NCBI GenBank assembly: GCA_964537895.1
Contig: CAZIDK010000002.1
Span: forward strand, 82,684-146,683
Direction of reading: 5' to 3'
Length of the DNA: 64,000 nucleotides
Origin: an uncultured Gammaproteobacteria bacterium
GTDB lineage: Bacteria > Patescibacteriota > Microgenomatia > Levybacterales > UBA12049
Part shown: piece after piece, positions 20,405 to 64,000 of the stretch
How the letters are laid out: each line of letters begins with the position of its first letter
Position numbering within the stretch: position 1 is the first letter of the stretch
Position numbers and translations under genes: made by a program
Notes under the pieces: generated by a model
Databases searched by the model: none
What the model was told of the DNA's origin: nothing
What the model saw: the letters and a program-made list of their open reading frames with translations, nothing else

Positions 20405-20479
20405 TGGAGCGGCAGACCGGGTTCGAACCGGCGACCTTCTCCTTGGGAAGGAGACATTCTGCCACTGAACTACTGCCGC
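20405..20479 (-). tRNA. tRNA-Gly (anticodon CCC), CCA encoded
   Basis: Reverse complement reads GCGGCAGTAGTTCAGTGGCAGAATGTCTCCTTCCCAAGGAGAAGGTCGCCGGTTCGAACCCGGTCTGCCGCTCCA. Anticodon stem TCTCC/GGAGA, loop TTCCCAA. Confidence 0.85.
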
Positions 20480-20531
20480 AACATAAACACTTCTGTGTTT
20501 TATTATACAGCAATAACAATAAATAGACGAA

Positions 20532-21146
20532 CTATCTTGGCAGTTTTAGAACATTACCGGAATGAATTACGTCTGGATTTACTAATTTATTTGCTTTTGC
20601 AATTTCCACCCATTTATATCCGTCCCCGTATGCTCTTACCGCAATTGTCCAAAGATAATCACCTTTTTGAACGGTATACGTTGATCCTGTTATGGAACTT
20701 GTTTTTTGAGCACTAATTACGGGATCCGCAGTATTTTTAACTATTATTGGTTTTACGTTAGGAATCGTAAGTTTTGTGCCAACGTATAAAAGTCCTGGAT
20801 TTGCTAATTTGTTTGCCTTGGATACATCAACCCAGTTGTAACCCGAACCGTATATTTTTTCTGATATATTCCAGAGATCGTCTCCTTGTTTAACCAGATA
20901 CGTTTTTGGTAATGATTTATTTGCTTGCTGTTCCTGACTCGTAGAAGTTGACTGCGTTGAACTCGTTTCATTAAAGTTTTTACCCTTTAAAAACGAAAAA
21001 ACAAGAACTGCTGCAACTACAACTACAACGATTCCTAAAAACAAACTCGTATAAGACTCTCCCCATTTTACCCTTGAAAAAACACTGCTACGAGCAACGG
21101 ATCTGGAGACAGCTTGTGTTTTGTTATTTTTTTTTGTTTTTGACAT
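20532..21146 (-). CDS. LysM-domain peptidoglycan-binding protein (N-terminal TM anchor, two LysM repeats)
   Basis: Two copies of the Y.V..GD.LW.I......G.G..W..I..AN.L.NP.....G..L.IP motif. Start trimmed to MSKTKKNNK at 21146 (GGAGGA SD upstream) because the longer ORF runs into tRNA-Asp. Confidence 0.65.
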   Translation of the reverse strand: MSKTKKNNKTQAVSRSVARSSVFSRVKWGESYTSLFLGIVVVVVAAVLVFSFLKGKNFNETSSTQSTSTSQEQQANKSLPKTYLVKQGDDLWNISEKIYGSGYNWVDVSKANKLANPGLLYVGTKLTIPNVKPIIVKNTADPVISAQKTSSITGSTYTVQKGDYLWTIAVRAYGDGYKWVEIAKANKLVNPDVIHSGNVLKLPR

Positions 21147-21189
21147 TTTGTCCTCCTTCCCGGACAGAGGTAAGGAATTTGTTAAGTAT

Positions 21190-21267
21190 TGGCGGGGCGA
21201 ACGGGACTCGAACCCGCGACCTCTTCCGTGACAGGGAAGCGCTCTAACCAAACTGAGCTACCACCCC
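21190..21267 (-). tRNA. tRNA-Asp (anticodon GTC), CCA encoded
   Basis: Reverse complement reads GGGGTGGTAGCTCAGTTTGGTTAGAGCGCTTCCCTGTCACGGAAGAGGTCGCGGGTTCGAGTCCCGTTCGCCCCGCCA. Anticodon loop CTGTCAC. Confidence 0.85.
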
Positions 21268-21340
21268 AAACTTAACGAATCTACGGGTATCCTAGCAAAT
21301 TGTTGAATTATAGTCAATGCTCTGGTATGATTTTTTTGCT

Positions 21341-23194
21341 ATGAGTAACCTGGAAATAGTAAAGCTTTTTAGAAATGTTGCAGCCGCTTACTCAATAAAA
21401 GATGAAAAAAAATTCCGGTTCCAAATTATTGCATATCAAAAAGCCGCGGACACCGTTTCTAATTTAACTTCGGAAATTATTGACTTCTATAAAGATAATA
21501 AACTGAACACTCTTCCCGGTATTGGAGTAACCATAAAATCTCATCTTGAAGAACTATTTAAAACAAATAAGGTAAAGCAGTTTGAATGGGCTTTGCACGG
21601 AATTCCCGAAGCTGTTTTTCCCTTATTAGATATTCCCTCATTTGGTCCCAAAAAAGTATATAGGCTGGTCAAAGAATTTCATCTTAAAAACTCTAAAACC
21701 GTGCTTGAAGATCTTGAAAAAATTGCAAAGCAGGGGAAAATTGCCAGATTAGCTAGTTTTGGAGATAAATCTCAAAGTGACATTCTTAGAGCAATTGCCG
21801 AGTTCAGACTTGGAAAAGGAAAAACAACCAGAATGACACTCCCATATGCAATGGAGGTAGCCGATAAAGTAGTTTCTTATTTAAAGCAGTCAAAAGACGT
21901 AGTTCGCGCAGAACCTTTGGGAAGTTTAAGACGCAGAATGCCCACAGTCGGCGACATAGATATAGCCGTAGCCACAGATAACCCAAAAGGCGTAATTGAA
22001 TATTTTACCTCATATCCGTATAAAGAACGCATTATTGAAAAAGGCGATACAACCTCCTCAATCTTAGTTTCCGGAGGAAAGCAGGTGGACCTTATGACAC
22101 AGCCCCCGGAGGCTTTTGGGTCGCTTTTACAGCACTTTACAGGCAGCAAAAACCATAACATTCACTTAAGGGAATTCGCTCTCAAGAAAGGATTATCTCT
22201 ATCGGAATATGGCATCAGACGGAAAACGCCCGCCCCGCTTCGCTTGGCGAGGCCGGAGGAAAATGCCCGCCCTGAGCGAGGCCCCGCACCGTCTGGTGCA
22301 GGGCGAGGCCGAAGGGGGAAATGGAAAATGGAAAATTTTTCTACAGAAGAACAATTTTATCATGCTGTCGGCCTAGAGTGGATTCCGCCGGAAATAAGAG
22401 AGAATACGGGCGAGATTGAGTTGGCTTCTCAAAAAAAACTCCCTAAGCTCGTTGAGTTACCGGATATCAAGGGGGACCTGCATATTCACACAAGCTTTCC
22501 CATAGAACCAAGCCATGATTTGGGACAAAACACTATTTTAGAAATGCTGGAAAAAGCAAGACTTTTAAAATATGCGTATTTAGGATTTTCCGAACACAAT
22601 CCCAGTATTTCTAAACATAATTCAAATCAAACTTACTCAATTTTGGCAAGAAGAAATGAAGAAATTGAACATATTTTATTGAGTAATAAAGATGTTCGTA
22701 TATTAAAATTACTCGAAATTGATATATTACCTCACGGAAATCTTGCTATAGATGATAAATCTCTGAATCTCTTAGATGGCGCTATAGTTTCTATTCATAG
22801 CACATTCAACATGAACAAGACCGACATGACGGAAAGAGTTTTAAAGGGTTTGTCGCATAAAAAGGCTAAGATACTCGCTCACCCAACGGGCAGAATGTTA
22901 AATGAAAGACAAGGTTACGAATTGGATTGGAGCAAAATATTTGAATTTTGCAAAAAAAATAATAAGGCCTTGGAAATTAACAGCTGGCCGGGCAGATTAG
23001 ATTTACCCGATATGGTAATTAGAATGGCTGTAGAAGCCAAGGTTAAAATGGTAATAAATACAGACAGTCACGCGGTTTCCCAAATGGAGCTTATGAAGTA
23101 CGGCATTGCAATGGCAAGGAGAGGCTGGGCAACAAAAGATGACATACTCAATACTTTATCGTATAATGAATTCTCCGAGTGGTTAAGAAAATAA
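21341..23194 (+). CDS. polX: DNA polymerase X family protein with C-terminal PHP phosphoesterase domain
   Basis: N-terminal pol-beta-like HhH and palm domains, then LHIHTSFP and later His/Asp PHP motifs. An alternative start lies at 21317. Contains a GC-rich insertion that stays in frame at 22224-22318. Confidence 0.75.
   Translation: MSNLEIVKLFRNVAAAYSIKDEKKFRFQIIAYQKAADTVSNLTSEIIDFYKDNKLNTLPGIGVTIKSHLEELFKTNKVKQFEWALHGIPEAVFPLLDIPSFGPKKVYRLVKEFHLKNSKTVLEDLEKIAKQGKIARLASFGDKSQSDILRAIAEFRLGKGKTTRMTLPYAMEVADKVVSYLKQSKDVVRAEPLGSLRRRMPTVGDIDIAVATDNPKGVIEYFTSYPYKERIIEKGDTTSSILVSGGKQVDLMTQPPEAFGSLLQHFTGSKNHNIHLREFALKKGLSLSEYGIRRKTPAPLRLARPEENARPERGPAPSGAGRGRRGKWKMENFSTEEQFYHAVGLEWIPPEIRENTGEIELASQKKLPKLVELPDIKGDLHIHTSFPIEPSHDLGQNTILEMLEKARLLKYAYLGFSEHNPSISKHNSNQTYSILARRNEEIEHILLSNKDVRILKLLEIDILPHGNLAIDDKSLNLLDGAIVSIHSTFNMNKTDMTERVLKGLSHKKAKILAHPTGRMLNERQGYELDWSKIFEFCKKNNKALEINSWPGRLDLPDMVIRMAVEAKVKMVINTDSHAVSQMELMKYGIAMARRGWATKDDILNTLSYNEFSEWLRK
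22224..22318. repeat. GC-rich (about 70% GC) insertion that stays in frame inside polX
   Basis: Three gcgaggcc units and an imperfect palindrome gccctg...cagggc. Left-flank ggaaaacg and an inside-edge ggaaaatg are direct repeats; three ggaaaat heptamers lie on the right. Adds about 25 aa (PAPLRLARPEENARPERGPAPSGAGRGRRG) in the linker between the EYG and TEE motifs. Confidence 0.5.
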
Positions 23195-39827: not shown

Positions 39828-40244
39828 ATGAATCTTCTTCTTGAAATTATTACTCCGGAAAAAGTTGTTCTAAAGGACGAGGTTGATGAAATAATTGTTC
39901 CCACCGTAACCGGAGAAATTGCAATTTTATCAAATCATACACAGCTTTTGACGAAAATAAATCCCGGCGAGTTAGTCATTAAAAAAAATGGCAAAAGTCA
40001 ATCGTTTGCCATACTGGGAGGATTTTTGGAAGTAATTAATAACCATATCAGCGTCCTTGCCGATTATGCTATAAGAGCCGAGGACATTGAAATTGCAAAA
40101 GTGCAAGAAGCACAGGAAAGAGCCAGGCAAAAAATGAAACAAAAAGATACGGAGCAAAACTTTAGAGTCGCCGAAGCAGAGCTTAGAAAATCTCTTTTGC
40201 AGCTTAAGGTAGCCCGCAAGCATAAAATTAAATATACCCCTTAA
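39828..40244 (+). CDS. atpC: F0F1 ATP synthase subunit epsilon
   Basis: N-terminal beta-sandwich, C-terminal helical hairpin, 138 aa. Confidence 0.8.
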   Translation: MNLLLEIITPEKVVLKDEVDEIIVPTVTGEIAILSNHTQLLTKINPGELVIKKNGKSQSFAILGGFLEVINNHISVLADYAIRAEDIEIAKVQEAQERARQKMKQKDTEQNFRVAEAELRKSLLQLKVARKHKIKYTP

Positions 40245-40280
40245 TTTGCCTAAACGCTCTAAATTTCATAGAATAAGGTA

Positions 40281-40322
40281 CTGCCGGAGTAACTCAGGGA
40301 ACGGAGCAAAGCGAGTTCGCCT
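40281..40322 (+). pseudogene. tRNA 5'-half-like fragment 1
   Basis: gccggagtaactcagggaacggagcaaagcgagttcgcctgc, a degenerate acceptor and D-arm. Shares its start (gccgnagtaactcag) and its end (ttcgcctgc) with fragment 2. Confidence 0.4.
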
Positions 40323-40440
40323 GCTTGATCGCGTCAGACGCGACTTGACAGACGCGACGAGCAAGTGTTTCGTCCCAGCATTTTCTTGCAAATTTTGATA
40401 AAATTTGCTTAGAAATGCGGGATCCCGTAAATCTAAGCTT

Positions 40441-40479
40441 GCCGAAGTAACTCAGCGGTAGAGTAGCTCTTTCGCCTGC
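40441..40479 (+). pseudogene. tRNA 5'-half-like fragment 2
   Basis: gccgaag-ta-actc-agcggta-gagt-a-gctct-ttcgcct aligns position by position with nt 1-37 of the adjacent tRNA-Thr and breaks off after the anticodon-loop position. Confidence 0.5.
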
Positions 40480-40487
40480 CCGCCATC

Positions 40488-40559
40488 GCCAACATAGCTC
40501 AGTGGCAGAGCAGCTGTTTCGTAAACAGCAGGTCGTTGGTTCGATCCCAACTGTTGGCT
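40488..40559 (+). tRNA. tRNA-Thr (anticodon CGT)
   Basis: GCCAACA/TGTTGGC acceptor, D-stem GCTC/GAGC, anticodon stem GCTGT/ACAGC with loop TTCGTAA, T-arm GTTGG-TTCGATC-CCAAC. Confidence 0.8.
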
Positions 40560-40582
40560 CAGGCAAGCAAGATTTACTGGGA

Positions 40583-40621
40583 TAAACAGCAGGTCCTCGG
40601 TTCAATCCCGAGAGACGGCTC
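40583..40621 (+). pseudogene. tRNA 3'-half-like fragment 1
   Basis: aacagcaggtc matches tRNA-Thr from position 38 on. The T-arm CTCGG-TTCAATC-CCGAG has compensatory changes. Preceded by gatttactgggata. Confidence 0.5.
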
Positions 40622-40647
40622 AATAAACGGCTGAATTTACCGGGATA

Positions 40648-40686
40648 AACACTAGGTCGCAGGTTCGATTCCCGCCATCGGCTCTG
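40648..40686 (+). pseudogene. tRNA 3'-half-like fragment 2
   Basis: aacactaggtc, then T-arm GCAGG-TTCGATT-CCCGC and an acceptor-like 3' end catcggctc. Preceded by gaatttaccgggata. Confidence 0.45.
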
Positions 40687-40702
40687 AATTTGTAATATAA
40701 TT

Positions 40703-41425
40703 GTGAATATGTCTAAAAGAAGATCAAGATTAAGTCTTAAAACGGAAAAAAGAACCCGTAAGACAATTTTCTTAACCAGTCTTGGAATACTGATAATTTT
40801 AATTTTGCTTATTAAGTTTGGCATTAATATACTGGTCGGTTTTAGTGTTTTTTTGGCAGGCACTAAGAATCAAGCTTTGACAACATCTAGCTCTTCTAGT
40901 AACACCTTTATCGCTCCCCCGGTTCTAAATCCTCTTCCTAGCGCCACAAACAGCGCCAGGATTGTAATTTCGGGTAAGTCCCAATCTGATAAAACAGTTA
41001 AACTTTATATAAATAACGATTTAAAAGATACAACTCAAGCCGACAAAGACGGGAATTTTTCATTTATTCAAACTCTTTCTGCCGGAGACAACCGGATTGA
41101 AACAAAAGCTGATAAAAATAATAAATCCAGTGATTTTTCCAATAGCTTTACTGTTTTTTTGAAAAATAACGCACCTTCTTTGACCGTAGACTTTCCTTCC
41201 AACGGACAATCATTTTCAAAAGATCAAAACAGCGTTAACGTAAAAGGAAAAACAGATTCGGAAACAAGCGTTACTGTTAATGGCTTTTGGGCAATTATAG
41301 ATGAGAACAGCAATTTCTCTTACAATCTTCCCCTTCAGAATGGAGACAATCAAATAAAAATAACCGCTACAGATCAGGCCGGAAACAAAACCGAAAAGGA
41401 TTTAAAAGTTACCTATTCTCAGTAA
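40703..41425 (+). CDS. Membrane-anchored surface protein with Ig-like (Big) beta-sandwich repeats
   Basis: N-terminal TM helix, then two repeats of about 90 aa each ending in the pattern DKDGNFSF / ENSNFSY. Confidence 0.4.
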   Translation: MNMSKRRSRLSLKTEKRTRKTIFLTSLGILIILILLIKFGINILVGFSVFLAGTKNQALTTSSSSSNTFIAPPVLNPLPSATNSARIVISGKSQSDKTVKLYINNDLKDTTQADKDGNFSFIQTLSAGDNRIETKADKNNKSSDFSNSFTVFLKNNAPSLTVDFPSNGQSFSKDQNSVNVKGKTDSETSVTVNGFWAIIDENSNFSYNLPLQNGDNQIKITATDQAGNKTEKDLKVTYSQ

Positions 41426-62991: not shown

Positions 62992-64000
62992 TTAAATAAT
63001 TTGAACTCTTGAGTTAATAATACTAATGTAATCTTCTTTTAGTTTTTCCTTTATTTCATCTATTTTATAATATTTCTGAGCCATTTCCTTTTGTCTTTTT
63101 AAGTTAAACTCCCCATTCTTATTTATGGGGATTTCCATATATATTTCGCTCATTCTCTCTATGCCTAATCTTTTATTTGCTCCTTCACCAAGAGTTCTGC
63201 TTGGTAATACCTGTCCTAAAATAAAACACGAATATTCAAAGTCGATTTTACCTTTATACATTTGCCGTAATTCTAAAATCCCTGCGTGTGTAGTAATTGA
63301 AAATTTTCCATTTCTATAAAAGACTGTTCCTGCATGAACACCATCAGTCGTCCAACTTAGACATTCTTTTTCATAATCGAAAGTATCAATTTTTCCAATC
63401 TCGCCAAAATTAACAGTTTGAGATGAATATAGTGGATATTCTCCTTTGTGTTCATGTATATACTTTTTTGTGTAAGTTGAGTTTCCTTTTTTAGGGGAAA
63501 ATATCCTAGTTACTGGAACTAGTTTTGTTTCATACTTGCTACTTATGTCAACTCTTGATTTGATTAAACTATTGAAAACACTACTAAGCTCAAGCTTTAA
63601 GTTTTGGATTTCAAGATATTTTTTAGCAAGCTCTCTCTGTTTTTTCAGATCAAATGCGCCATTATTGTTAACTGGAATTAAAATTTGTACATCTTTTATT
63701 TTATCAACACCACATTTGTGAAGGTATGAAAAACCACATAAAAATAATTGCCTCTCAATTTCAAATTTAAGGTATAACTTATCCAATTTATCATAATACT
63801 TCTGTTTTATTATTAACGCCCTATGATCTTCATTGGTAGTGAATTTGTGGTCTCTTATAAAGACGTACCCAACTGAACCGTTCCTGTTCCAGCTTAAACA
63901 GTTCTCATAGTATTTAACTCCTTTTAGGTTGTTTTGTATAAATCCAAGTGTAGATTTTTCATCTCTTGATGATGCATAAACAGGAATAGATCCCTTATTT
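62992..64000 (-). CDS. hsdS: Type I restriction-modification specificity subunit (HsdS)-like, with the N-terminal part (on the minus strand) beyond the window
   Basis: The frame stays open from the TTG at 63786 to position 64000. Two similar target-recognition-type blocks (IPVYASS...ENCLSWNRNGSVGYVFIRDHKF and YPLYSSQ...KECLSWTTDGVHAGTVFYRNGKF) are each followed by a conserved helical spacer (LAKKYLEIQNLKLEL and MAQKYYKIDEIKEKL). Confidence 0.55.
   Translation of the reverse strand, partial: NKGSIPVYASSRDEKSTLGFIQNNLKGVKYYENCLSWNRNGSVGYVFIRDHKFTTNEDHRALIIKQKYYDKLDKLYLKFEIERQLFLCGFSYLHKCGVDKIKDVQILIPVNNNGAFDLKKQRELAKKYLEIQNLKLELSSVFNSLIKSRVDISSKYETKLVPVTRIFSPKKGNSTYTKKYIHEHKGEYPLYSSQTVNFGEIGKIDTFDYEKECLSWTTDGVHAGTVFYRNGKFSITTHAGILELRQMYKGKIDFEYSCFILGQVLPSRTLGEGANKRLGIERMSEIYMEIPINKNGEFNLKRQKEMAQKYYKIDEIKEKLKEDYISIINSRVQII

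What the first reader, a model, noticed from the sequence alone, without database searches (positions are those of the whole stretch)
40281..40690. tRNA-Thr embedded in an array of tRNA 5'-half and 3'-half fragments
A complete tRNA-Thr(CGT) sits at 40488-40559. Two upstream fragments align to tRNA positions 1-37. Both begin gccg(g/a)agtaactcag and both end ttcgcctgc, i.e. just after the anticodon position, the canonical 37/38 intron and split site. Two downstream fragments align to positions 38-73. Their T-arm stems keep pairing through compensatory changes, which suggests they come from different functional tRNAs. Each is preceded by the same roughly 15 nt leader (g)atttac(t/c)gggata. The 10-mer cccgccatcg occurs both in front of the intact tRNA and inside the last fragment. 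A 160 bp spacer (40323-40440) contains its own hairpins (gcaaatttt/aaaatttgc and the palindrome cgggatcccg). The array lies exactly at the boundary between the atp operon and a 21 kb glycosylation island. It therefore looks like stacked attachment-site scars from repeated integration or excision at a tRNA. A split or permuted tRNA arrangement is the alternative reading. Either way it is unusual for a bacterial locus.
Basis: seen in the sequence. Interest (0 to 1): 0.75.

Follow-up and report, generated by a model that had tools for sequence, protein, structure and literature searches.

The report
Nested relics of replaced tRNA-Thr genes
One working tRNA-Thr(CGU) gene of a Levybacteria-like (Patescibacteria) genome sits inside the broken halves of three earlier tRNA-Thr genes, each cut inside its anticodon by a small insert that brought a replacement tRNA.

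Summary
The array is real. It holds one intact tRNA-Thr(CGU) at 40488-40560 (allele T4), 5' pieces upstream and 3' pieces downstream. All pieces break between anticodon nucleotides 35 and 36, not at 37/38.

Each piece matches a different functional tRNA-Thr(CGU) allele found intact in close relatives:
- D matches T1 (38/38 to L113).
- C matches T3 (38/38 to L002).
- B matches T2 (32/33).

Relatives show the empty site (T1, T2 or T3 alone between the same promoter and the same downstream gene). They also show clean intermediates: L211 has T1 interrupted by a T3 cassette, and L204, L132 and L175 have an intact outer tRNA interrupted by a 100-110 bp cassette.

The "glycosylation island" is syntenic in all ten related genomes fetched by atpC, so it is not what integrated. 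No integrase, group I intron or phage/plasmid match was found. The halves cannot pair into tRNAs.

Best reading: a Russian-doll stack left by three nested insertions at 35/36, each killing the resident gene and supplying a new one. Deletions between repeats followed. How the inserts move is unknown. Small cassettes with inverted-repeat arms, moved in trans, are my inference.

The parts
40246..40274 (+). Sigma-70-like promoter TTGCCT-17-TAGAAT, ahead of the outermost 5' piece. It probably drives the whole array.
   Evidence: The same promoter precedes the plain tRNA in L113, L114, L209 and L214.
40283..40297 (+). A1: GCCGGAGTAACTCAG, nt 1-15 of a T2-type tRNA-Thr(CGU).
   Evidence: D2. 14-15 of 15 identical to intact tRNAs of L146, L157, L144 and L142.
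40298..40358 (+). The 'D-loop insert', a structured element: a GAAC..GUUC helix around a variable hairpin, then the CGCCTG-CTTGA-CAGGCG palindrome. Here it carries a 14-nt tandem duplication. It is seen only in dead outer 5' halves.
   Evidence: Shared with L002, L009, L157 (alignment A2) and with L204 and L211. Duplication: D4.
40359..40372 (+). A2: GAGCAAGTGTTTCG, nt 22-35 of allele T1, ending at G35. Its AGTGT is the partner of ACACT in D.
   Evidence: D3 and I4. 14/14 identical to intact T1 tRNAs.
40373..40422 (+). Left arm of cassette K1: a long imperfect hairpin TCCCAGCATTTTCTT..AGAAATGCGGGA, with end motifs M1 and M2.
   Evidence: I1. Homologous arms in L002, L156 and L211, with a different inner hairpin in L156.
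40423..40440 (+). TCCCGTAAATCTAAGCTT: left inverted-repeat arm (motif M3) of the cassette that carried T2.
   Evidence: Pairs with 40562-40582 in the MFE fold. I5.
40441..40474 (+). B: 5' half (nt 1-35) of allele T2, ending at G35.
   Evidence: nhmmer E=3e-6. 32/33 to the intact tRNAs of L157, L144 and L153.
40475..40487 (+). CCTGCCCGCCATC: C-rich left arm of the 'class II' cassette that carries the live tRNA.
   Evidence: The identical 13-mer lies between the same kind of 5' half and the tRNA in L008. Related arms occur in L204, L132, L175, L007 and L147.
40488..40560 (+). Intact tRNA-Thr(CGU), allele T4. It is the only functional gene of the array.
   Evidence: ARAGORN. Rfam tRNA 69.8 bits. 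96-97% identical to the tRNAs of L008 and L009.
40561..40582 (+). Trailer / right arm AGGCAAGCAAGATTTACTGGGA (motif M4).
   Evidence: The near-identical trailer TGCAAGCAAGATTTACTGGGA (21 of 22 bases the same) follows the intact T2 tRNA in L142. Inverted repeat of 40423-40443.
40583..40622 (+). C: 3' half (nt 36-76) of allele T3, starting at T36.
   Evidence: 38/38 to the intact tRNA of L002 and 37/38 to that of L114. nhmmer E=7e-4.
40623..40645 (+). ATAAACGGCTGAATTTACCGGGA: right arm of cassette K1 (motif M5).
   Evidence: The same arm follows intact T3 in L002, L211 and L156.
40646..40685 (+). D: 3' half (nt 36-76) of allele T1, the original resident. The native downstream flank TGAATTTGTAATATAAT follows it.
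   Evidence: 38/38 to the intact tRNA of L113. The same flank is found in L113, L209 and L217.

Best explanation
Shown:
- The locus between atpC and the Big-domain gene is the conserved home of the tRNA-Thr(CGU) gene in this Levybacteria-like lineage.
- In the window the original resident (allele T1) was cut between anticodon nucleotides G35 and U36 by an insert (K1) carrying a complete T3 gene.
- T3 was cut at the same position by an insert carrying T2.
- T2 was cut at the same position by a short C-rich/G-rich-armed insert carrying T4.
- Only the innermost gene, T4, is intact.
- The outer genes survive as 5' pieces upstream (A1/A2, B) and 3' pieces downstream (C, D).

Inferred from the layout:
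- Deletions between direct repeats removed the T3 5' half and the T2 3' half.
- A further small element sits in the D-loop of the outermost 5' piece.
- The whole array is probably one transcript from the promoter at 40246-40274. RNase P and RNase Z would cut T4 out of it, and the relics would have no function.

Inferred mechanism (about 0.4): the inserts are small non-autonomous cassettes. Each is a tRNA gene flanked by inverted-repeat arms, with or without its own promoter. An unidentified site-specific enzyme, encoded elsewhere, recognises the anticodon stem-loop DNA and cuts after TTCG. Because the insert destroys the resident tRNA-Thr(CGU) gene (presumably a needed one) and replaces it, it cannot easily be lost. 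Repeated invasion therefore produces nesting and rapid allele turnover.
For: 1. Identity of the pieces. D equals T1 of L113 (38/38), C equals T3 of L002 (38/38), B is 32/33 to T2 tRNAs, and A2 is 14/14 to T1. The pieces are much less similar to the window's own T4: 25/34, 30/38 and 28/38.

2. Empty sites, with the same promoter and the same flanks:
- T1 alone in L113, L209, L210 and L217-219.
- T2 alone in L206 and L216.
- T3 alone in L114, L214 and L220.

3. Intermediates. L211-213 (three assemblies) carry T1 interrupted by K1[T3], with a complete T1 3' half. L002 is a modified version of this state.

4. Clean nested cases elsewhere. In L204/L205, L132 and L175 the outer halves pair perfectly (acceptor and anticodon stems). 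When the insert is removed in silico from L132 and L175, ARAGORN calls a tRNA-Thr(cgt). That outer tRNA is the lineage's own allele (71/73 and 68/72), while the inner tRNA is foreign (at most 62/74).

5. Junctions. Every 5' piece but one ends at G35 (L157's ends at the 3' end of its anticodon-stem 5' strand), and every 3' piece starts at T36. This holds at about ten left and nine right junctions, in different outer alleles and distant genomes.

6. Arm families recur with different cargo and different targets. The linker CCTGCCCGCCATC is identical in the window and in L008, whose AtpC is only 50% identical. The arms are mutually complementary.

7. On a Big-domain protein tree, alleles T1, T2 and T3 are interspersed. 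At least seven states of the locus occur among genomes with 77% identity or more.
Against: - No recombinase or transposase was found in the 64 kb window. None was seen next to the arrays in relatives either (only a few ORFs tested).
- No free or extrachromosomal form of a cassette was found. IMG/VR scans gave only chance hits. Phage and plasmid BLAST gave only generic tRNA similarity.
- The inner alleles are the same alleles that are residents in sister strains. The K1 arms resemble a native promoter and downstream flank. The inserts could therefore be captured copies of a relative's locus rather than dedicated elements.
- The junctions show no shared overlap, no target duplication and no known end signature, so no known enzyme family is implied.
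- The deletion steps in the reconstruction are inferred, not observed.
- The D-loop insert is conserved across distant genomes and remains unexplained.
Confidence: 0.65

Rival explanations
1. Break-and-capture. The tRNA-Thr gene suffers a recurrent double-strand break in the palindromic anticodon region. DNA taken up from related strains is captured at the break. Only captures that include a working tRNA-Thr(CGU) gene survive selection. No dedicated mobile element exists.
For: - The inner alleles T1', T2 and T3 are also ordinary residents in sister genomes.
- K1 spans roughly a promoter, the tRNA and about 23 nt of downstream flank, laid out like the native locus.
- No recombinase was found.
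Against: - Random captured fragments would not share conserved, mutually complementary arms across distant genomes with different cargo. Such arms are seen in the window, L008, L204, L132 and L175.
- The inserts are uniformly tiny (about 100-140 bp).
- The agent of the site-specific break is as unknown as a recombinase would be.
Confidence: 0.2
2. Classical integrase att scars. Phage- or ICE-type elements, possibly the downstream glycosylation cluster, integrated into the 3' part of the tRNA several times and left duplicated 3' segments.
For: - The 3' pieces C and D, each preceded by a similar leader, look like attR sites.
- tRNA genes are the classical targets, and the anticodon loop is a known sublocation (Williams 2002, cited in PMC9897764).
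- GC content falls after 42 kb.
Against: - The cluster is syntenic in all ten relatives, whatever the state of the tRNA.
- There is no distal repeat and no integrase.
- 5' halves upstream are not produced by this mechanism.
- The spacers between copies are only about 22 nt.
- attL and attR share no overlap segment.
- Clean 100-110 bp insertions exist in L132, L175 and L204.
Confidence: 0.05
3. Functional split or intron-containing tRNA. The outer halves are expressed and joined in cis or in trans, as in Nanoarchaeum split tRNAs, or as with the 35/36 group I introns of Patescibacteria. The inner tRNA would then be part of an intron.
For: - The outer halves in L132, L175 and L204 are undamaged, and the arms form a helix that would bring the two ends together.
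- Position 35/36 is the preferred group I intron site in Patescibacteria tRNAs (PMC13011429).
Against: - In the window C has no 5' partner. B+C, and A (with its insert)+D, are not tRNAs.
- No group I intron hit was found in the window region or in five related loci.
- The 5' exon would end in G35, not U. The class I insert does not end in G.
- Inserts of 100-140 nt, 74 of them a tRNA, are too small for a group I core.
- No splicing endonuclease that acts on bulge-helix-bulge motifs (the enzyme that joins archaeal split tRNAs) is known in bacteria.
- Sister genomes do without the halves.
- Outer and inner tRNAs have the same anticodon, so a joined product would add nothing.
Confidence: 0.04
4. 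Local tandem duplication of the resident tRNA followed by decay, or a chimeric metagenome assembly of strain variants.
For: - The copies recur at 61 and 63 nt spacing (D1).
- Logan contigs break between 40462 and 40506.
Against: - The pieces are identical to alleles of other genomes, not to the resident T4.
- The order is nested, not tandem.
- Both flanks are reproduced in independent assemblies. The B-T4 junction recurs in L008. Analogous arrays occur in assemblies from many studies.
Confidence: 0.03

Closest known systems
tRNA-gene attachment sites of integrative elements, and the partial tRNA copies they leave (Reiter 1989; Williams 2002; van der Gulik 2023, PMC9897764)
   Same: A tRNA gene is the target. 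The break lies in the anticodon loop. The incoming DNA restores a working tRNA. Partial copies of the old gene remain.
   Different: The known cases duplicate only the 3' segment, at the far end of a 9-120 kb element that carries an integrase. Here the insert is about 100-140 bp and brings a whole tRNA gene. It leaves both a 5' half and a 3' half, shows no overlap segment, and has no integrase nearby.
tRNA-Thr(GGU) locus heterogeneity in Caldiarchaeum subterraneum (Sugahara 2012, PMC3293823)
   Same: Population-level variants of one tRNA-Thr locus. A 5' fragment of the old gene lies upstream of a replacement tRNA-Thr. Replacement is attributed to a mobile element.
   Different: That case is archaeal. 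The intervening DNA is a 1.8 kb element encoding a recombinase. The tRNAs carry BHB introns, and no nesting of several generations is seen.
Split and permuted tRNA genes of Archaea and red algae (PMC3218864, PMC4033280)
   Same: Separate 5' and 3' tRNA halves, with complementary sequences next to the break.
   Different: Those halves are the only copy of the tRNA. They are joined by the BHB endonuclease and a ligase, and they are conserved. Here an intact gene with the same anticodon sits between the halves, the halves are mismatched or orphaned, and relatives lack them.
Group I introns at position 35/36 of Patescibacteria tRNA genes (Nakagawa 2026, PMC13011429)
   Same: The same phylum and the same unusual position in the anticodon loop.
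   Different: Those introns average about 257 nt, follow a U35, are detected by group I intron searches (here: the Rfam group I model) and self-splice. Here nt 35 is G, there is no group I hit, and most of the insert is a tRNA gene.
MITE-like non-autonomous elements and IS200/IS605-type insertion 3' of a fixed tetranucleotide without target duplication (own knowledge)
   Same: Small size, inverted-repeat or hairpin ends, no coding capacity. Insertion is always directly after TTCG and leaves no duplication.
   Different: No transposase partner is known. The end architecture does not match IS200/IS605 (no subterminal hairpin at a fixed distance). The cargo is a functional tRNA gene. The target is a single gene rather than many TTCG sites, as far as could be seen.

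Membership tests
Integrase-mediated genomic island at a tRNA gene | The island is flanked by the intact tRNA and a direct repeat of its 3' segment at the distal end. | tested here: not met
   An nhmmer tRNA-Thr profile over the whole window finds partial copies only at 40441-40684. None lies beyond the glycosylation cluster.
Integrase-mediated genomic island at a tRNA gene | The island is present or absent among relatives. | tested here: not met
   The order Big-domain gene, Wzy, PMT, GT2, GT2/PMT, GT4 is conserved in all ten genome loci.
Integrase-mediated genomic island at a tRNA gene | A tyrosine or serine recombinase gene lies next to the att site. | tested here: not met
   Pfam scans of 40 of the window's 59 ORFs of 120 aa or more found no integrase, resolvase or transposase. 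The untested ORFs include the other atp-operon genes and ORFs nested in larger ones.
Integrase-mediated genomic island at a tRNA gene | attL and attR share an identity (overlap) segment. | tested here: not met
   The left junctions read TTCG|TCCCAG or TTCG|CC(T/C)GCC. The right junctions read GGGA|TAAA or CAGG|TAA. At most one shared base.
Split tRNA genes (Nanoarchaeum type) | The halves pair into a complete cloverleaf (acceptor and anticodon stems). | tested here: not met
   B+C is not called a tRNA. A with its insert, joined to D, is not called either. C's acceptor AGACGGC has no GCCGTCT partner in the window.
Split tRNA genes (Nanoarchaeum type) | No intact gene exists for that isoacceptor, and the halves are conserved in relatives. 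| tested here: not met
   An intact tRNA-Thr(CGU) lies between the halves. Relatives L113, L114, L206, L209, L214, L216, L217 and L220 have only a plain gene.
Split tRNA genes (Nanoarchaeum type) | A BHB motif and a splicing endonuclease are present. | not testable with these tools
   Only 64 kb of the genome is available. No such enzyme is known in bacteria (own knowledge).
Permuted tRNA gene | The 3' half is encoded upstream of the 5' half. | tested here: not met
   All 5' pieces lie upstream and all 3' pieces downstream.
Group I intron in a tRNA anticodon loop | A group I catalytic core is detectable (Rfam RF00028). | tested here: not met
   No hit at E<=10 in 40200-40760. No hit at E<=1 in L132, L175, L156, L002 or L157.
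Group I intron in a tRNA anticodon loop | The 5' exon ends in U and the intron ends in G. | tested here: not met
   The 5' pieces end in G35. Class I inserts end in ...GGGA. Only class II inserts end in G.
MITE / DDE-transposon derivative | Terminal inverted repeats are present. | tested here: met
   40423-40443 pairs with 40562-40582 in the MFE fold (about 19 of 21 complementary by my reading of the two arms). Motif TCCCRGYAWWT has three exact matches (four in the whole 64 kb) plus two near variants, all within 270 nt, in alternating orientation. Class II arms are complementary.
MITE / DDE-transposon derivative | A target-site duplication flanks the insert. | tested here: not met
   Removing the insert restores the tRNA exactly, with no duplicated bases, in L132 and L175.
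MITE / DDE-transposon derivative | Many dispersed copies, and an autonomous partner encoding a transposase. | tested here: inconclusive
   The motifs are not enriched elsewhere in the window.

The most novel reading that the evidence does not exclude
A family of about 100-140 bp non-autonomous 'tRNA replacement cassettes' exists in Patescibacteria. Each is a complete tRNA-Thr(CGU) gene between inverted-repeat arms. Each inserts precisely between nucleotides 35 and 36 of the resident tRNA-Thr(CGU) gene, killing it and substituting for it, so the host cannot lose the invader. Serial invasion would drive the unusually fast turnover of tRNA-Thr alleles seen in this clade. Selection to escape tRNA-targeting nucleases may add to it.
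Probability: 0.35. Interest if true: 0.8.

Novelty: new variant of a known kind. Interest (0 to 1): 0.62.

Why it matters
1. It would be a new way for a selfish DNA to persist. The insert destroys a tRNA gene that the cell presumably needs and carries the replacement, all within about 100 bp and without encoding any protein.

2. It shows an unusually fast-evolving tRNA locus. Three strongly different tRNA-Thr(CGU) alleles and at least seven locus states occur among close relatives. This raises the question of what selects for tRNA replacement in these reduced genomes.

3. Practically, such relics are a source of false "split tRNA" or pseudo-tRNA calls and of contig breaks in metagenome assemblies of Patescibacteria.

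4. Nested relics give a readable record of the order of past events.

Tried and rejected
- IMG/VR scans. The leader pattern gave 101 hits, none followed by a T-loop, so they are chance. The B/T4 junction gave 0 hits. A T-loop plus GGCTCAGGCAAG trailer gave 10 hits, none a tRNA.
- BLAST against phages and plasmids found only generic tRNA similarity to 40488-40560.
- Rfam at permissive thresholds found only the intact tRNAs, no group I intron or other family.
- ARAGORN in intron mode did not report the outer tRNAs. At a lowered score it gave only spurious calls. I used in-silico removal of the inserts instead.
- Genes between atpC and the tRNA in L008 and L010 have no Pfam match, and no recombinase is among them.
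- I suspected an internal promoter in the K1 arm (TTGCTT-17-TAAATC). The consensus scan does not call it in the window, L002 or L156, so I do not rely on it.
- I considered and set aside several mechanisms because the junctions do not fit: integron attC/attI (no G|TT core), a tyrosine recombinase with a 7-bp overlap, a serine recombinase with a 2-bp overlap, Tc1/IS630 TA duplication, the IS200/IS605 end architecture, and a Xer/dif-like site.
A collection-wide search for the cassette arms was therefore not possible.
Full report
**What is in the sequence.** Downstream of atpC (39828-40244) lies a sigma-70-like promoter, TTGCCT-17-TAGAAT, at 40246-40274. After it come tRNA-derived pieces around one intact gene. 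ARAGORN finds a single tRNA here, tRNA-Thr(CGT) at 40488-40560. Rfam gives it 69.8 bits and reports nothing else credible in 40200-40760.

I built a profile from about 60 intact tRNA-Thr(CGU) genes of related loci and ran it over 590 kb. In the window it detects three partial copies:
- 40441-40474, profile positions 1-34, E=3e-6.
- 40583-40621, positions 35-73, E=7e-4.
- 40646-40684, positions 35-73, E=2e-6.

The repeat finder adds three further matches:
- 40282-40297 matches 40440-40455.
- 40359-40373 (GAGCAAGTGTTTCGT) matches the D-stem to anticodon part of the tRNA, and is complementary to 40647-40659.
- The 10-mer CCCGCCATCG occurs twice.

All 5' pieces end ...TTCG and all 3' pieces begin TAAA. 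The break is therefore between nucleotides 35 and 36, inside the anticodon CGU, and not at 37/38. It holds nt 1-15 (40283-40297), then a 61-nt insert in the D-loop (40298-40358), then nt 22-35 (40359-40372).

**Organism and conserved context.** AtpC relatives in GTDB genomes are Levybacteria/Patescibacteria MAGs. All ten have a tRNA-Thr(CGT) downstream of atpC. In all ten the tRNA is followed by the same genes: a Big-domain gene (homologue of 40709-41425), Wzy, PMT, GT2, GT2/PMT and GT4. The glycosylation cluster is therefore a conserved part of the chromosome, although its GC content is lower. It is not an island that entered at the tRNA.

No further tRNA-Thr piece lies beyond the cluster. 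No integrase or transposase was found among the 40 window ORFs tested, out of 59 of 120 aa or more.

**Where the pieces come from.** Each piece is essentially identical to a functional tRNA-Thr(CGU) allele that is intact in a close relative:
- D is 38/38 identical to the tRNA of L113 (allele T1).
- C is 38/38 identical to that of L002 (allele T3).
- B is 32/33 identical to the tRNAs of L157, L144 and L153 (allele T2).
- A2 is 14/14 identical to T1, and A1 is 14-15/15 identical to T2-type tRNAs.

The pieces are far less like the window's own live tRNA (T4): 25/34, 30/38 and 28/38. The A·C mismatch in the T-stem of D is also present in the intact T1 genes, so it is not decay.

**Empty sites and intermediates.** I fetched close relatives through the Big-domain protein. 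All have the same promoter and the same downstream flank (..ATTTGTAATATAAT..ATG). The states of the locus differ:

| State of the locus | Loci |
|---|---|
| T1 alone | L113, L209, L210, L217-219 |
| T2 alone | L206, L207, L216 |
| T3 alone | L114, L214, L215, L220 |
| T1 cut at 35/36 by a cassette (K1) with intact T3; complete T1 3' half after it | L211-213 (three assemblies) |
| The same, with further changes in the 3' relic | L002 |
| T2 cut at 35/36 by CCCGTCCGCCATC + a T1'-type tRNA + GGCTTTGGCGGGTGGA; the T2 halves pair perfectly | L204/L205 (96% identical Big-domain protein, the closest relative) |

The intergenic distance ranges from 136 nt to 464 nt (the window). On a rough NJ tree of the Big-domain protein, the three alleles are interspersed. 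Allele replacement has therefore happened repeatedly.

**The same thing in distant relatives.**
- L132: the outer halves together form a perfect tRNA, equal to the intact tRNA of L142 at 71/73. They are separated by a 17-nt arm, a foreign tRNA-Thr(CGU) and another 17-nt arm.
- L175: the same architecture with a different outer allele (68/72 to L177 and L181), a different inner tRNA and related arms. In both L132 and L175, deleting the insert in silico gives a sequence that ARAGORN calls tRNA-Thr(cgt).
- L008: AtpC is only 50% identical, yet it has the same junction as the window. A T2 5' half (nt 1-35) is followed by CCTGCCCGCCATC and a T4-like tRNA.
- L009, L010, L156, L157, L147/L152, L007 and L142 carry further relics of the same kinds.

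About 14 of the roughly 80 loci with sequence upstream of the Big-domain gene hold relics.

**Reconstruction for the window** (inference from the above).
1. T1 was the resident, since D and its flank equal L113.
2. K1 inserted at 35/36, giving the L211 state. K1 consists of the hairpin arm 40373-40422, T3, and the arm 40623-40645.
3. A cassette carrying T2, with arms 40423-40440 and 40561-40582, inserted at 35/36 of T3. The same trailer follows intact T2 in L142.
4. A class II cassette (arm 40475-40487 plus T4) inserted at 35/36 of T2.
5. Two deletions between direct repeats removed the T3 5' half and the T2 3' half with the class II right arm. The first lay between the similar arm motifs TCGCATAAAT and TCCCGTAAAT. 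The second lay between the GGCTCA-GGCAAGC ends.
6. The left end (A1 plus the D-loop insert) resembles L204. It may have arrived by recombination within the shared insert, where the window has a 14-nt duplication (D4).

The order 5' T1, 5' T2, [T4], 3' T3, 3' T1 is what nesting predicts. Tandem duplication does not predict it.

**Function.**
- The relics cannot form tRNAs. C has no 5' partner in the window. B+C, and A (with its insert)+D, are rejected by ARAGORN.
- Sister genomes lack the relics.
- Only the upstream promoter is called by the consensus scan.
- The most likely course is one precursor transcript, from which RNase P and RNase Z release T4 (inference).
- The array folds much more stably than shuffled controls (z = -5.2). 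The fold includes a 21-nt helix between the arms at 40423-40443 and 40562-40582. This is expected for inverted-repeat arms and stacked tRNA pieces, and does not by itself show function.

**Mechanism of insertion: not shown.** The junction features are as follows.
- The cut is almost invariant, after TTCG and before TAA. One relic, in L157, ends five bases earlier.
- The flanking stems differ between targets, so only the loop and the hairpin shape are common to them.
- There is no target duplication and no overlap segment.
- There are two arm families. Class I has the motif TCCCRGYAAAT at its ends, with five copies in alternating orientation in 270 nt of the window. Class II has a C-rich left arm and a G-rich right arm that pair with each other.

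These features fit none of the recombinase or transposase signatures I checked. They do fit an enzyme that recognises a DNA hairpin.

I rate a trans-mobilised, non-autonomous cassette as the most likely mechanism (about 0.4). Break-and-capture of a relative's locus, filtered by selection, comes next (about 0.2). The conserved arms, shared across distant genomes with different cargo and targets, favour the first. Two points favour the second. The inner alleles are ordinary residents elsewhere, and K1 resembles a whole native transcription unit.

**Comparison with what is known.**
- Integration into tRNA genes with restoration of the gene is classical. It leaves a 3' copy at the far end of a large element that carries an integrase (PMC9897764 and references there).
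- The Caldiarchaeum tRNA-Thr locus shows a 5' fragment and a replacement tRNA, separated by a 1.8 kb recombinase element (PMC3293823).
- Patescibacteria are known for group I introns at 35/36 in tRNA-Asn, Asp and Tyr (PMC13011429). Here nt 35 is G, the insert is too small, and no group I core is detected.
- Three full-text searches found no description of small cassettes that carry a whole tRNA gene and nest inside the anticodon of the same isoacceptor gene.

I therefore class the array as a new variant of a known kind (tRNA-targeted insertion with gene restoration). The array in the window is its most eroded and most deeply nested example.

**Verdict.**
- The "att scars" idea is right in spirit but wrong about the island and the mechanism.
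- The split-tRNA idea is not supported.
- Interest is moderate to high. The relics themselves do nothing, but the process that made them appears to be undescribed and is now testable.

Noticed in passing
window 40298-40358; also L002 1588-1628, L009 13573-13620, L157 2039-2084, L204 1274-1314, L211 1246-1286: A 42-61 nt structured element sits in the D-loop of dead outer 5' halves only. It has a GAAC..GUUC helix around a hairpin whose sequence varies but keeps pairing, then the palindrome CGCCTG-CTTGA-CAGGCG, which contains a perfect TTGACA. It occurs in both T1- and T2-type halves and in genomes with only about 40% Big-domain identity. It is never seen in an intact tRNA. Its origin and role are unexplained.
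   Followed up: partly
L002 1800-1883: An 84-nt insertion lies in the T-loop (between T55 and C56) of the dead outer 3' relic. It starts with the hairpin TTGTAGATCCTACAA. With the D-loop and anticodon-loop inserts, all three loops of dead tRNA genes in this clade carry insertions. This hints at a loop- or hairpin-targeting process.
   Followed up: no
window 40462-40506 (L001 ends, L203 begins): Two independent Logan assemblies of related samples both break inside the B / linker / T4 segment, although no 31-mer is repeated there. This may reflect strain-level polymorphism of the array in those samples.
   Followed up: no
L113, L114, L206, L209, L214, L216, L217, L220 (tRNA just upstream of the Big-domain gene): Three strongly different tRNA-Thr(CGU) alleles segregate among genomes with 77-96% identical neighbouring proteins. 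Their acceptor stems are GCCGATG, GCCGGAG and GCCGTCT, and their anticodon and T stems also differ. The alleles are interspersed on the tree. This is unusually fast tRNA turnover.
   Followed up: partly
window 42000-64000: GC content drops from about 0.38 to about 0.30 across the glycosylation cluster, even though at least its first 8 kb are syntenic in all relatives. The low GC is a property of the cluster, not evidence of recent acquisition.
   Followed up: partly
L004 10557-10952 and L115; L010 17775-18329: In some relatives a single extra gene sits between the tRNA and the Big-domain gene. It is a PCC-domain protein in L004 and, by DNA similarity (not scanned), in L115, and a GNAT acetyltransferase in L010. 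In L010 a 3' tRNA relic and a leader-like sequence (AAAATTACTGGCTATAAA) lie just before it.
   Followed up: no
L158, L159, L180, L185, L188: In distant relatives tRNA-Gly(CCC) lies directly upstream of tRNA-Thr(CGU), preceded by tRNA-Asp(GTC) in L158, L159 and L180. In the window, tRNA-Gly(CCC) and tRNA-Asp lie 19 kb away on the other strand (20405-21267). The tRNA cluster has been rearranged in this lineage.
   Followed up: no
window 62992-63786 (-) and 21317-23194 (+): An ORF with a type I restriction-modification specificity (HsdS) domain lies at the far end of the glycosylation cluster. A PolX-like ORF (DNA polymerase beta thumb plus HHH domains) lies next to tRNA-Asp.
   Followed up: no
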